The notes below the pieces were generated by a model. That model was not told where the DNA came from, did not search any database, and was given only the letters and a program-made list of their open reading frames with translations. Source: a virus (taxonomy: Duplodnaviria > Heunggongvirae > Uroviricota > Caudoviricetes). Taken from it: a stretch of 4,711 nucleotides of DNA. The translations under genes were made by a program, and so were the position numbers. Positions 78 to 3,780 of the stretch are shown here, piece by piece (within the stretch, counting starts at the first letter, position 1; the number at the start of each line of letters is the position of its first letter). Where the stretch lies: positions 1 through 4,711 of the IMG/VR virus record IMGVR_UViG_2547132270_000004; one strand, 5' to 3'.

Positions 78-413
78 ATTGATAACAGAGGGCGTTGTAG
101 CGGGGTTGTCACTTAAGCGTATGGTCAACCTGACAACCCGGTGTCCTCAACGGGGAAGGAATAACCCCGCCATACTTACCGCCGCGCCATTTCGCGGAGT
201 GCCACAACCGGAAGCGCACGGTCGAATTAAATTTAACGACACCGTACAGAGAGACCAATTTCGCCGTGTGCTTTCGCGTTATGCCCTGGCTTTTCAGGGA
301 TATATCCTTTCAGTAAACTGTCAGTACCGGATTCTTATCCGTGTCCGGCGCACGACCACACGTGACAGCGTGTTGGTCTCCATTTTTAACCCAGAACCTC
401 AATGGAGGATAAA

Positions 414-623
414 ATGCCAAACAAAAAAAGAAATCCGCTTATTGAAAAACAGATTGAATGCCTTGTAAATCAACTCAGGCAATCAGGGTTATTAAAAACT
501 CATTCAGAGTTGAGGCTCACAGAATCAGCATTCGACGATAAATTAAATAATGTCCTTTATAATGGCATTATTGATTTTAATCGTTCTGTTGGTCGCCGCG
601 GCCCTGCTGGTGTTTCCTTATAA
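414..623 (+). CDS. Hypothetical small protein (69 aa), convergent with the minus-strand operon
   Basis: ATG at 414 has a perfect GGAGG (404-408) 5 nt upstream; the ORF-track start at 402 has no RBS. Open frame to TAA 621-623. No recognisable domain. The C-terminal third overlaps an alternative-frame hydrophobic ORF, so the true coding frame is uncertain. Confidence 0.4.
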   Translation: MPNKKRNPLIEKQIECLVNQLRQSGLLKTHSELRLTESAFDDKLNNVLYNGIIDFNRSVGRRGPAGVSL

Positions 624-1262
624 TTACCAGTCAATCCAGAGCGGACCGTGTTCAGCGTAAATATAACTGTACACATCCAGATTATATTTGTGGTCTGTTA
701 AGAACAGGCCGCAAATACATGCCGAAGCTTCAAGGGCAGCGGCTCTGTTACTGAATAACCATGTAGCAACATTCCAGCGTTTTTCTGCATCCCAGTCTTT
801 CTCAAGGCCTGATACCATGAAGAAACCGTTAGTGTTGCCATCAAATAATTCTGTTTCCAGATTTTTAAGCAATGCCTGATGGACTCTTGCCAGGTATTCC
901 GCCGGAATTTTGCCACGAATTCTGATGAGATTGTCATAAACAAACATGTTCCCCGCATATGGCGATTTTTCTTTCTTGTTTTTTAAACCAGCATCATGAG
1001 CAAACTGATCAATTTCTTCTTCCGTTGGTTTCGTATTGATGTTTTGCGCTGTCGTTTCTGCAATTTTATTTGCCACACTCTCTGAGTCGTGTTTATTTAT
1101 AGACGCACAGAAATACAATCCGGTAAACGCATCGCGCACATTACGAGCTATATTATCAGTGTCTTTTTTCGTTACCGATTCCAATGCAAGTTCGTTCAGA
1201 CGATGACGAAGTGTATGTGCTGCAATCTCCTGGATTGAAGTAGGTAAATCTTTAAATTCCAT
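624..1262 (-). CDS. Hypothetical protein (212 aa), unrecognised cargo gene in the repressor-controlled operon
   Basis: Long minus-strand ORF (216 codons in the track). Preferred start is the internal ATG at 1260-1262, preceded by GAGG with a 6-nt spacer (minus strand TGATGAGGTTGACGATGG). The alternative ATG at 1272-1274 overlaps the upstream stop (TGATG). Predicted soluble and acidic, with no motif I recognise. Confidence 0.75.
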   Translation of the reverse strand: MEFKDLPTSIQEIAAHTLRHRLNELALESVTKKDTDNIARNVRDAFTGLYFCASINKHDSESVANKIAETTAQNINTKPTEEEIDQFAHDAGLKNKKEKSPYAGNMFVYDNLIRIRGKIPAEYLARVHQALLKNLETELFDGNTNGFFMVSGLEKDWDAEKRWNVATWLFSNRAAALEASACICGLFLTDHKYNLDVYSYIYAEHGPLWIDW

Positions 1263-1503: not shown

Positions 1504-1555
1504 AATTTAGTTTTCTCATGTTAATTGGTCAAGTATTTTTGATGAGAAAACTCAA
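1504..1555 (-). promoter_or_regulatory. Putative sigma70 promoter of the early-left (dicB-type) operon with two flanking operator-like sites
   Basis: Minus strand: -35 TTGACC (1532-1527), 17-nt spacer, -10 TAAATT (1509-1504). Operator-like TGAGAAAACTCA at 1543-1554 sits just upstream of the -35. An 11/12 copy TGAGAAAACTAA (minus strand, 1518-1507) overlaps the spacer and -10. Confidence 0.45.
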
Positions 1556-2834: not shown

Positions 2835-3780
2835 ACGCCCACTGGTTATTAACACGCAGCTGGCGATGAAAATTGGCCTGAATGAAGCCATTGTACTGCA
2901 GCAGCTGCATTACTGGTTGAGAGATACTAATTCCGGCATGGAATGTAACGGGGTTCGCTGGATTTATAACACAACAGAACAATGGCTGGAACAGTTCCCG
3001 TTCTGGTCAGAGTCAACGTTAAAACGCGCATTTGCAAGTCTGAAAACGCTGGGGCTTTTGCGTTGCGAAAAGCTCAACAAATCAAAGCGTGACATGACTA
3101 ATTTTTACACGATTAATTACGAGAGTGAGCTTTTAGATGGTGGCAAAGTGAGCGAATCCATCAGGTCAAAATGCGCCGCTCCATCAGGTCAAAATGACAC
3201 GATGGAAGAGGTCAAAATGGCACGCTCCATTGGTTCAAAACGACCCAATGTCATCGGGTCAAAATGGCCTGATGATCTTACAGAGAATACAACAGAGAAT
3301 ACAACAGAGAATAAAAACACTTCTCGTCCGGAAGCTTCGCAACCGGACCCGCAGACGGCTGAACAGGATTTTTTAATCCGACACCCTGATGCGGTTGTGT
3401 TCAGTGCGAAAAAACGCCAGTGGGGAAGTCAGGAAGATTTGGCGTGCGCACAGTGGATCTGGGGACGAATCGTGAGTCTTTACGAGCAGGCGGCCAGCGA
3501 TGATGGCGAGATCACGAGACCGAAAGAACCCAACTGGACAGCATGGGCCAATGACGTGCGCACAATGCGGATGCTGGATGGCAGAACTCACAGACAAATT
3601 TGCGAAATGTTTGGGCGGGTACAGCGGGATCCATTCTGGGTAAAAAACATCATGAGTCCGTCAAAGCTCCGCGAAAAATGGGACGAACTGGTCATCCGCC
3701 TGGGGCGTTCATCTGTACAGCGTTGTGTGAATCATATTTCTGAACCGGACACCGAAATTCCGCCGGGGTTCAGGGGGTAA
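2815..3780 (+). CDS. Phage replication initiator / replisome organizer (lambda O-like), 321 aa, with internal iterons
   Basis: ATG at 2815 is chosen over the track's TTG at 2761; it overlaps the upstream gene's stop by 20 nt. The N-terminal domain has the look of a replisome-organizer DNA-binding domain. The central low-complexity linker is encoded by the iteron array and tandem repeats. It lies immediately upstream of the DnaC-like loader. Confidence 0.85.
   Translation: MSLLFAERPLVINTQLAMKIGLNEAIVLQQLHYWLRDTNSGMECNGVRWIYNTTEQWLEQFPFWSESTLKRAFASLKTLGLLRCEKLNKSKRDMTNFYTINYESELLDGGKVSESIRSKCAAPSGQNDTMEEVKMARSIGSKRPNVIGSKWPDDLTENTTENTTENKNTSRPEASQPDPQTAEQDFLIRHPDAVVFSAKKRQWGSQEDLACAQWIWGRIVSLYEQAASDDGEITRPKEPNWTAWANDVRTMRMLDGRTHRQICEMFGRVQRDPFWVKNIMSPSKLREKWDELVIRLGRSSVQRCVNHISEPDTEIPPGFRG
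3157..3266. repeat. Iteron array (five direct repeats, about 23-bp phasing): putative phage origin of replication inside the initiator gene
   Basis: Core GGTCAAAATG occurs at 3164-3173, 3187-3196, 3210-3219 and 3257-3266, with a variant GGTTCAAAACG at 3232-3242. Extended consensus is about TCCATCAGGTCAAAATG. The arrangement is analogous to ori-lambda within gene O. Confidence 0.6.
3280..3315. repeat. 12-bp tandem repeat ACAGAGAATACA, 2.9 copies, A-rich, encoding TENTTENTTEN
   Basis: Two perfect copies (3280-3291, 3292-3303) and an 11/12 third copy (3304-3315), immediately downstream of the iterons. Confidence 0.7.

What the first reader, a model, noticed from the sequence alone, without database searches (positions are those of the whole stretch)
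414..623. Plus-strand small ORF with a perfect Shine-Dalgarno, antisense to the DicF-containing operon
All surrounding genes from dicA to dicF run on the minus strand, yet this 69-codon ORF is on the plus strand with GGAGG 5 nt from its ATG. No minus-strand ORF of meaningful length exists anywhere in 78-623. Its mRNA would be antisense to the operon transcript that must cross this region to make DicF, which suggests an inserted convergent module or a cis-antisense regulatory arrangement.
Basis: seen in the sequence. Interest (0 to 1): 0.55.

Follow-up and report, generated by a model that had tools for sequence, protein, structure and literature searches.

The report
Convergent small prophage gene beside DicF
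The plus-strand 69-codon ORF is a real, conserved but uncharacterised prophage gene that sits, with its own structured leader, in a swappable slot facing the DicF operon, almost always next to the same partner protein domain.

Summary
ATG 414 to TAA 623 on the plus strand has GGAGG five bases upstream. It lies between DicF (25-76, minus) and a 212-aa minus-strand gene (624-1262), and no meaningful minus-strand ORF exists in 78-623.

It is a real gene. NCBI already annotates it as hypothetical protein WP_001133037.1, and it matches phrog_4274. dN/dS is about 0.2 in this frame only. The frame is intact in 84 of 94 loci. Homologs of 45-56% identity exist in Salmonella.

No function can be assigned by homology or fold.

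Three features stand out:
- It belongs to an insertion that K-12 Qin lacks.
- It follows a conserved leader of about 87 nt, with a promoter-like site, two hairpins and an anti-SD:SD helix. That leader precedes at least 12 unrelated small ORFs in other prophages.
- In three of four gene contexts it converges on the same ~120-aa C-terminal domain.

Most likely it is a separately transcribed accessory gene whose basic product works with its acidic partner. Its mRNA must be antisense to the DicF-producing transcript. Expression, binding and antisense control are all untested.

The parts
414..623 (+). ORF69 coding sequence: 69 aa, basic (pI 9.7), two predicted helices and a conserved GRRGPAG tail
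   Evidence: Searches give the sequence and ORF. PGAP annotates it as WP_001133037.1. It matches phrog_4274 at E 1e-51. dN/dS is 0.18-0.29 in this frame only. 36 of 68 polymorphic sites fall at third codon positions. More distant homologs exist. pI is and the helices.
404..408 (+). Shine-Dalgarno GGAGG, five bases before the ATG
   Evidence: The same ATGGAGGATAAAATG context precedes unrelated cargo ORFs in other loci.
291..319 (+). Putative sigma-70 promoter: TTTTCA (291-296), 17-bp spacer, TAAACT (314-319). The predicted start is about 326, just before HP1.
   Evidence: It matches 8 of 12 consensus positions, which is below the tool's cut-off. However, a -10-like hexamer ends 6-7 bases before HP1 in several unrelated upstream contexts: TATAAC (L005, 9/12), TTGAGA-17-GATAAT (L093, 10/12), TAAAAT (L077) and TATATC (L213). 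This is an inference, not a demonstrated promoter.
327..348 (+). HP1: conserved hairpin CCGGAU..GUCCGG at the predicted 5' end of the plus-strand RNA
   Evidence: It is invariant in 26 diverse leaders. Its U.G wobble pairs can form only in the plus-strand RNA. It is also present in K-12, Evi, L088 and Salmonella loci.
354..378 (+). HP2: hairpin GACCACACG-UGACAG-CGUGUUGGUC. The structure is kept while the sequence is replaced or inverted in other loci.
   Evidence: Fold. Variant hairpins at the same place are CUCCAC..GUGGAG, CCCAAC..GUUGGG and an inverted copy.
378..407 (+). HP3: CUCCAU (378-383) pairs with AUGGAG (402-407) and would sequester the Shine-Dalgarno
   Evidence: RNAalifold predicts a 5-bp helix with an A-U to U-A covariation in 7 of 26 sequences. 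The single-sequence fold prefers a smaller local hairpin that also covers the SD.
423..429 (+). A7 run in codons 4-6; site of frameshifted alleles
   Evidence: Nine IMG/VR loci read MPNKKEIRLLKNRLNAW* and then continue out of frame.
624..1262 (-). Convergent partner gene, 212 aa, acidic (pI 5.5). The C-terminal domain (about 624-982) always accompanies ORF69. The N-terminal 'MEFKDLP' domain (about 983-1262) is shared with many other proteins.
   Evidence: Its stop codon abuts the ORF69 stop with no spacer. Matches phrog_2151. Co-occurrence is shown. The domain mosaic is shown.
78..354 (-). Conserved non-coding block upstream of DicF (DicF precursor region), shared with K-12 Qin and many phages. 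The mosaic junction with the cassette lies at about 327-354.
   Evidence: The 190-nt RNase III product of DicF is described in PMC10448788.
25..76 (-). DicF small RNA
   Evidence: Rfam RF00039, 76.4 bits.

Best explanation
Shown here: ORF69 is a genuine protein-coding prophage accessory gene. It is the plus-strand half of a two-gene cassette inserted into the repressor-controlled early-left (dicBF-type) operon, between the ydfA-side genes and the DicF precursor region.

Inferred: it is transcribed from its own weak sigma-70 promoter, which ends 7 bases before a conserved 5' hairpin. Its leader of about 87 nt can mask the Shine-Dalgarno. Because it faces the operon, it can be made while the operon is repressed in the lysogen. 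Once the operon fires, the two transcripts are fully complementary across ORF69, so each should interfere with the other by polymerase collision or cleavage of the RNA duplex.

Also inferred, from strict co-occurrence and opposite charge: the small basic protein most likely acts on or with the ~120-aa acidic C-terminal domain of the convergent early gene, as an antidote or partner pair.
For: Coding:
- dN/dS is 0.18-0.29 in the ORF69 frame and mostly above 1 (0.64-6.4) in the other two plus frames. Against Salmonella, 23 of 40 differences are at third positions.
- Across 24 intact alleles, polymorphic sites by codon position are 17, 15 and 36 (p = 0.003).
- The frame is intact in 84 of 94 loci, with 17 protein variants among the intact alleles.
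- Homologs of 64-78 aa at 43-56% identity keep the motif QI..L..QL..SGLLK.PS.L..F..KL...GI..N...GRRGPAG.

Inserted cassette:
- It is absent from K-12 Qin and phage Evi at the same junction.
- It is present in 597 of 5426 complete E. coli genomes.
- GC is 36.7% against about 51% in the flanks.

Own expression signals:
- The conserved leader precedes at least 12 unrelated cargo ORFs, all starting at the same ATG.
- Promoter-like hexamers sit at a fixed distance from HP1 in unrelated upstream contexts.
- Wobble pairs in HP1 favour the plus strand, and the anti-SD:SD helix shows one covariation.

Partner link:
- Every one of 86 ORF69 loci first examined has the C-domain convergent and abutting.
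- Salmonella L005 keeps only the C-domain ORF next to ORF69.
- Distant pairs in Cox/integrase-type (P2-like) Salmonella elements keep ORF69 (49-56% identity) overlapping a 217-220 aa protein. That protein has the same C-domain (28-38% identity, E 1e-11 to 1e-14) but a different N-domain.
- pI is 9.7 for ORF69 against 5.5 for the partner.

Antisense geometry: DicF is processed from the transcript that starts upstream of ydfA (PMC10448788).
Against: - There are no expression data. Neither transcription nor translation of ORF69 was shown, and searches of Ribo-seq and TSS supplements found nothing usable.
- The window's promoter matches only 8 of 12 positions and was not called by the scan.
- No terminator is predicted on either strand, so this is not a textbook self-contained moron.
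- The partner link could reflect physical proximity alone, since there is no spacer between the genes.
- One distant homolog (P0040, L212) has no C-domain partner nearby.
- In another cargo family, one 133-aa minus-strand gene occurs with two different plus-strand ORFs.
- No homology or fold hit supports any biochemical role, and the structure models are of low confidence.
- K-12 keeps the promoter-like site and both hairpins without any plus-strand ORF, so these elements might serve the minus-strand transcript instead.
Confidence: 0.55

Rival explanations
1. ORF69 is an autonomous lysogen-expressed effector, for example a superinfection-exclusion, defence or host-modulating protein. It has no functional tie to the 212-aa protein. 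The two stay together only because they abut and are exchanged as one recombination block between the conserved leader and the conserved N-domain.
For: - The slot holds at least 12 unrelated cargo families behind one leader, the pattern expected of an arms-race hotspot.
- One minus-strand gene (133 aa) pairs with two different cargos.
- P0040 lacks the partner.
- Eleven loci have a cargo ORF but no N-domain gene, and 20 have the N-domain gene but no detected cargo ORF.
Against: The pairing of ORF69 with the C-domain survives three different contexts: the MEFKDLP N-domain, no N-domain at all, and the MFNVKRN N-domain in Cox/integrase-type elements. It holds down to about 30-50% identity. That is hard to explain by linkage alone across such divergence and rearrangement. 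There is no match to any PADLOC defence model.
Confidence: 0.25
2. The main product is the plus-strand RNA, not the protein. A convergent promoter with a structured leader limits read-through of the toxic DicF/DicB part of the operon by transcriptional interference or RNase III cleavage of the duplex. The ORFs are secondary passengers.
For: - The leader is more conserved than any cargo. In K-12-type loci it persists without a plus-strand ORF, where it would run antisense into ydfC.
- No terminator separates the convergent units.
- RNase III is already known to act on this operon's RNA (PMC10448788).
Against: - There is clear purifying selection on the ORF69 protein sequence, and protein-level conservation at about 50% identity.
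- A strong SD is kept in front of every cargo.
- No antisense start was found in the one K-12 data set that could be searched. That set lists 3' ends, so the test is weak.
- This reading does not exclude a protein function.
Confidence: 0.15
3. The ORF is a chance open frame in the non-coding DicF precursor region, and the annotation is spurious.
For: A frame of this length appears in 8.6% of shuffles of the region. Nine loci carry a frameshift in the A7 run. There is no Pfam family.
Against: - The codon-position bias and dN/dS of about 0.2 are specific to this frame.
- Homologs at 45-56% identity are of the same length and lie in other genomic contexts.
- K-12's DicF precursor region lacks this sequence altogether.
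Confidence: 0.02
4. The real product is the 36-aa hydrophobic peptide in the +1 frame (550-660), a type I toxin-like membrane peptide. ORF69 would then be incidental.
For: A hydrophobic ORF, MSFIMALLILIVLLVAAALLVFPYNY..., exists. A similar one is present in Salmonella L005.
Against: - dN/dS is mostly above 1 in that frame (0.64-5.05).
- The frame is cut by stop codons in L012, L075 and L084.
- It is absent from all distant homologs.
- It has no SD.
- It is explained as the off-frame reading of the GC-rich GRRGPAGV codons.
Confidence: 0.02

Closest known systems
Lambdoid prophage 'morons' (autonomous accessory genes such as lambda bor and lom); comparison from general knowledge
   Same: ORF69 is a small accessory gene that is present or absent among otherwise similar prophages. 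Its base composition differs from its surroundings, it is oriented independently of the surrounding operon, and it has promoter-like signals of its own.
   Different: No terminator is predicted. It abuts or overlaps a convergent gene. It shares one conserved structured leader with at least 12 unrelated cargo ORFs. Expression in the lysogen has not been shown.
Immunity genes of pore-forming colicin operons (immunity gene on the opposite strand between the colicin and lysis genes, with its own constitutive promoter); comparison from general knowledge
   Same: A small gene converges on an inducible, repressor-controlled gene. The arrangement lets the protective partner be made while the inducible gene is silent. 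The pair is inherited together.
   Different: ORF69 is soluble and basic, not a membrane protein. There is no sequence or fold similarity to anything known. Toxicity of the partner is unknown. The setting is a prophage early operon rather than a plasmid.
Lambda oop RNA / cII, and similar convergent cis-antisense pairs in phage early regions; comparison from general knowledge
   Same: Convergent transcription units give complementary 3' regions. RNase III is known to process the sense operon's RNA (PMC10448788).
   Different: Here the plus-strand unit encodes a protein under purifying selection. The overlap of the coding regions varies from 0 to 77 bases among cassettes. No antisense effect has been measured.
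Variable accessory-gene hotspots of temperate phages and satellites (for example the P2/P4 defence hotspots); comparison from general knowledge
   Same: A fixed genomic slot with conserved flanks holds many unrelated small cargo genes across related elements.
   Different: None of the cargos or partners matches a known defence model. The conserved left flank is an RNA leader joined exactly at the cargo's start codon. The right flank is the N-terminal coding part of a gene.
phrog_4274 / RefSeq WP_001133037.1
   Same: Full-length match (residues 1-69 of 69, E 1.2e-51). The identical protein is annotated in RefSeq genomes and was seen on at least 1000 contigs.
   Different: Nothing differs: this is the same family. 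It carries no functional annotation.

Membership tests
phrog_4274 (phage protein family of unknown function) | Full-length profile match | tested here: met
   E 1.2e-51, residues 1-69 against profile positions 1-69 of 69.
Prophage moron | Dispensable: present or absent among closely related prophages at the same site | tested here: met
   Absent from K-12 Qin and phage Evi at the same junction. Present in 597 of 5426 E. coli genomes.
Prophage moron | Own promoter | tested here: inconclusive
   The window has TTTTCA-17-TAAACT (8/12), which the scan did not call. Promoter-like hexamers lie at a fixed distance from HP1 in unrelated contexts, up to 10/12 in L093. There are no transcript data.
Prophage moron | Own terminator | tested here: not met
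   No terminator-like site on either strand of 1-1600. The stop codon abuts the convergent gene's stop codon.
Prophage moron | Base composition unlike the neighbours | tested here: met
   GC is 36.7% against 51-52% for the leader and the DicF-upstream block.
Prophage moron | Expressed in the lysogen | not testable with these tools
   Needs strand-specific RNA-seq or Ribo-seq of a carrier strain.
Type II toxin-antitoxin or toxin-immunity pair | Two adjacent genes inherited as a pair | tested here: met
   ORF69 occurs with the C-domain in all 86 loci, in L005, L088 and L213-L220. The one exception is L212.
Type II toxin-antitoxin or toxin-immunity pair | Co-directional, co-transcribed operon | tested here: not met
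   The genes are convergent, and abut or overlap by 0-53 bases.
Type II toxin-antitoxin or toxin-immunity pair | Similarity to a known toxin, antitoxin or defence family | tested here: not met
   No match in Pfam, PADLOC, PDB or the fold libraries.
Type II toxin-antitoxin or toxin-immunity pair | One product is toxic and the other neutralises it by binding | not testable with these tools
   Only the opposite net charges (pI 9.7 against 5.5) hint at binding.
Type I toxin-antitoxin | Small hydrophobic toxin peptide that is conserved | tested here: not met
   ORF69 is hydrophilic (GRAVY -0.53). The 36-aa hydrophobic off-frame ORF is not conserved.
dicBF operon genes (ydfABC-dicF-dicB-ydfD) | Encoded on the operon strand and part of the dicBp transcript | tested here: not met
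   ORF69 is on the opposite strand. K-12's operon has no counterpart.
Known RNA families (for the leader) | Match to an Rfam covariance model | tested here: not met
   Only DicF was found at E <= 1, plus one chance-level hit to anti-hemB (E 0.57) on the minus strand of 425-497.

The most novel reading that the evidence does not exclude
The slot upstream of DicF may be a polymorphic two-gene system. An early-operon protein carries a conserved N-domain and an exchangeable C-terminal effector domain. It faces an exchangeable small protein that is expressed from a shared, translationally masked leader. Each cassette would be a cognate effector-antidote pair, or a defence and self-immunity pair. 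The convergent layout would couple the switch between them to prophage induction and to DicF/DicB output. ORF69 and its C-domain would be the most widespread example, shared by lambdoid and P2-like elements.
Probability: 0.2. Interest if true: 0.7.

Novelty: new member of a known kind. Interest (0 to 1): 0.42.

Why it matters
DicF and DicB are toxic prophage products, and their control is still being worked out. The published model has one promoter and no convergent unit (PMC10448788). In about 11% of complete E. coli genomes, including O157, O145 and O111 strains (hit list), a conserved protein-coding unit points straight into that transcript. Many more genomes carry the same leader with other cargo ORFs or with none.

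If the unit is active, it adds a layer of control over DicF/DicB. It also marks a hotspot of at least 12 uncharacterised small-protein families. These would be candidates for screens for prophage-encoded defence, counter-defence or antidote functions.

If the unit is silent, this is simply one more hypothetical prophage gene.

Tried and rejected
- Homology and fold: Pfam, PADLOC and PDB searches gave no significant hit for ORF69, its partner or nine other cassette proteins. AlphaFold models were of low confidence (pLDDT 58 and 56). Fold searches returned only generic helical or weak ACT-like matches. I draw nothing from them.
- Collections: tblastn against 50,697 isolated phage genomes found no ORF69. 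Both scans of species-representative genomes found nothing. One IMG/VR pattern scan was wasted on a wrong spacer length. Scans with P0037, P0038 and P0040 found nothing in IMG/VR.
- Literature: there are no hits for the protein accession, 'ybl81' or the leader sequence. Two DicF papers do not mention plus-strand ORFs. The Sakai small-gene supplements do not contain the sequence. One K-12 3'-end data set has no entry at the predicted start. Thomason 2015 is not held.
- Rejected readings: a chance ORF, the 129-aa TTG ORF at 79-468, and the 36-aa hydrophobic off-frame ORF. HP2 plus the U-rich tract as a plus-strand terminator remains only a possibility. The scan did not call it, and Evi-type leaders lack the U run.
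- Strand of the hairpins: wobble pairs in HP1 favour the plus strand. In HP2, by my own reading of the aligned variants, five single-side variants fit the plus strand and two fit the minus strand. This leans towards the plus strand but does not settle it.

Full report
**What the window is.** It is the immunity and early region of a Qin/Rac-like lambdoid prophage, read in reverse relative to K-12.
- DicF lies at 25-76 on the minus strand (Rfam 76.4 bits).
- Upstream of it in the operon sense are a 212-aa gene (624-1262), a gene whose homolog PGAP annotates as a DUF1391 (ydfA-family) protein (1274-1426) and a DicA-like repressor ORF (1617-2075).
- Plus-strand ORFs with cro/DicC-, YdaT-, replication- and DnaC-like counterparts in related loci run rightwards.
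- A TTGACC-17-TAAATT site at 1532-1504 on the minus strand sits where dicBp would be.

**The observation.** The plus-strand ORF runs from ATG 414 to TAA 623, and GGAGG at 404-408 lies five bases before the ATG.
- No minus-strand ORF longer than 49 aa exists in 78-623.
- A frame of this length occurs in 8.6% of shuffles of the region, so length alone proves nothing.
- The stretch 2-354 is 91% identical to the non-coding DicF/ydfC-dicF spacer region of K-12. Only 355-623 is peculiar to this kind of locus.

**It is a real gene, and already annotated.**
- PGAP calls it hypothetical protein WP_001133037.1 in E. coli 377323_2f and in O145:H28 RM12581.
- It matches phrog_4274 over its full length (E 1e-51).
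- The identical protein occurs on at least 1000 contigs, always as 'hypothetical'.
- Pairwise dN/dS among five diverged alleles is 0.18-0.29 in this frame and mostly above 1 (0.64-6.4) in the other two plus frames. Against the Salmonella allele (77% protein identity), 23 of 40 differences are at third positions.
- Across 24 intact alleles, polymorphic sites by codon position are 17, 15 and 36 (p = 0.003).
- Of 94 loci, 84 keep the 69-codon frame. Nine share a frameshift in the A7 run at 423-429, and one has a C-terminal frameshift.
- A profile search of 1.8 billion representative proteins, followed by a second search, found homologs of 64-78 aa at 43-56% identity with the same motif pattern and the GRRGPAG tail.
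- The 36-aa hydrophobic ORF in the +1 frame (550-660) is not conserved in these homologs and is rejected.

**It belongs to an inserted cassette.**
- Phage and K-12 matches to the DicF-upstream block stop at window 354.
- In K-12 the block is followed directly by the end of ydfC.
- In phage Evi the same gap holds a different plus-strand ORF (77 aa) converging on a different minus-strand gene (135 aa).
- ORF69 has 36.7% GC against about 51% for its left flank.
- The ORF69 locus is present in 597 of 5426 complete E. coli genomes. The 90-base leader alone is present in about 370 more.
- ORF69 is absent from 50,697 isolated phage genomes.

**A shared leader with many cargos.** The sequence from 327 to the ATG recurs in front of unrelated plus-strand ORFs. 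I scanned IMG/VR for the HP1 pattern and combined the hits with the loci already in hand.
- This gave 204 occurrences. At least 12 unrelated ORF families of 57-100 aa start at the same ATG, and 60 occurrences have no ORF, as in K-12.
- The leader has a conserved hairpin HP1 (327-348).
- It has a second hairpin HP2 (354-378). The hairpin is kept although its sequence is replaced (CUCCAC..GUGGAG, CCCAAC..GUUGGG) or inverted in other loci.
- It has an anti-SD, CUCCAU (378-383), complementary to AUGGAG (402-407).
- RNAalifold on 26 diverse leaders recovers HP1 and the anti-SD:SD helix. The helix shows an A-U to U-A covariation in 7 sequences. The U.G wobbles in HP1 pair only in the plus-strand RNA.
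- A -10-like hexamer ends 6-7 bases before HP1 in unrelated upstream contexts: TAAACT here (with TTTTCA 17 bases upstream), TTGTCC-18-TATAAC in Salmonella L005, TTGAGA-17-GATAAT in L093 and TAAAAT in L077. Random positions reach the window's score in 1.9% of trials.
- I take this as reasonable but indirect evidence for a plus-strand start at about 326. The tool's own scan did not call it, and no terminator is predicted.

**The partner.**
- The ORF69 stop codon abuts the stop codon of the 212-aa gene.
- In all 86 loci first examined, a homolog of that protein lies convergent and adjacent.
- The protein is a mosaic. An N-terminal 'MEFKDLP' domain of about 55-75 aa is shared with proteins that have quite different C-termini. 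Each of those faces its own plus-strand cargo, with overlaps of 0-77 bases.
- What follows ORF69 specifically is the C-terminal ~120 aa.
  - In Salmonella L005 the N-domain is gone, and the C-domain stands as its own ORF next to ORF69.
  - In L088 and in the Salmonella Cox/integrase-type (P2-like) elements L213-L220, ORF69 homologs (46-56% identity) overlap, by 11 and 53 bases respectively, a 203-220 aa protein. That protein has a different N-domain and the same C-domain (28-40% identity, E down to 1e-14).
- There are exceptions. P0040 (L212) has no such neighbour. In another family, one 133-aa gene occurs with two different cargos.
- Across all leaders, 130 have both an N-domain gene and a cargo, 38 have neither, 20 have only the gene and 11 have only a cargo. 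These counts are not corrected for relatedness.
- ORF69 is basic (pI 9.7) and the partner is acidic (pI 5.5).

**Function.** Nothing can be assigned by similarity. Pfam, PADLOC, PDB sequence search, AlphaFold (pLDDT 58 and 56) and fold searches were all uninformative. The mechanism I commit to is therefore architectural.
- ORF69 is a separately transcribed accessory gene that faces a repressor-controlled early operon. It could therefore be expressed when the operon is off.
[quoted passage not shown] That transcript must therefore cross ORF69 in antisense. Mutual interference is expected but untested.
- The conserved pairing and the opposite charges suggest that the protein acts on or with the C-domain of the early gene, in the manner of an antidote or immunity protein encoded convergently to an inducible gene.

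The rivals are an autonomous lysogen effector linked to its neighbour only physically, and an RNA-first antisense regulator. Neither is excluded.

**Novelty and score.** The gene itself is known as an annotated hypothetical. I found no description of the convergent slot, its shared leader or the ORF69/C-domain pairing. I file it as a new member of a known kind, a prophage accessory cassette. Interest is moderate: the coding status and architecture are solid, but function and expression are unknown.

Noticed in passing
window 550-660 (+): A 36-aa strongly hydrophobic ORF (MSFIMALLILIVLLVAAALLVFPYNY...) lies in the +1 frame across the end of ORF69. A similar one exists in Salmonella L005. It is cut by stop codons in L012, L075 and L084 and is absent from distant homologs. 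It is most likely the off-frame reading of the GRRGPAGV codons.
   Followed up: yes
window 423-429; L063-L070: An A7 run in codons 4-6 of ORF69 is the site of a frameshift shared by nine IMG/VR loci. Alleles that read MPNRPIHP lack the run. It could be simple decay or a slippage-prone switch.
   Followed up: partly
L003 (K-12 Qin) 3560-3660, minus strand of the record: K-12 keeps the promoter-like site, HP1, HP2 and the anti-SD-like CUCCUU, but no plus-strand ORF. Any transcript from there would run antisense into ydfC. The predicted start is near genome position 1,649,130. No record of such an RNA was found.
   Followed up: partly
L075, L078-L087, L091 leaders (equivalent to window 354-378): In some loci the HP2 hairpin is present as an inverted (reverse-complement) copy of the window's version. 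The stem is kept but the loop is flipped.
   Followed up: no
L005 4314-4508 and L091 1587-1781: A second copy of the leader in the same Salmonella element drives a different 64-aa ORF (MSEQELKLGACYY...). That ORF overlaps the end of a 119-aa MEFKDLP-type gene by 33 bases. The same pair occurs in E. coli, where the minus-strand gene carries a premature stop.
   Followed up: partly
window 3144-3266 and 3280-3313: Inside the replication-initiator-like gene there are about five degenerate 23-base repeats (CCATCAGGTCAAAATG-type, probably origin iterons). There is also a perfect 12-base tandem repeat, ACAGAGAATACA, of 2.8 copies.
   Followed up: no
L005 1236-2562: The Salmonella element that carries the ORF69 homolog has three C4 antisense RNA copies and two isrK copies (Rfam, above gathering score) among Phage_ASH genes. 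It has no DicF at the gathering threshold.
   Followed up: no
window 1504-1532 (-): A TTGACC-17-TAAATT promoter-like site lies upstream of ydfA, in the position of dicBp.
   Followed up: no
window 284-299: A further small hairpin, CCCUG-GCUUUU-CAGGG, overlaps the putative -35 of the plus-strand promoter. It is conserved in DicF-type loci. Its role and strand are unknown.
   Followed up: no
L088 3429-3896: In one Salmonella-type locus, a 155-aa plus-strand ORF with hydrophobic segments ends just before HP1. There the ORF69 homolog may be co-transcribed with an upstream gene rather than from its own promoter.
   Followed up: no
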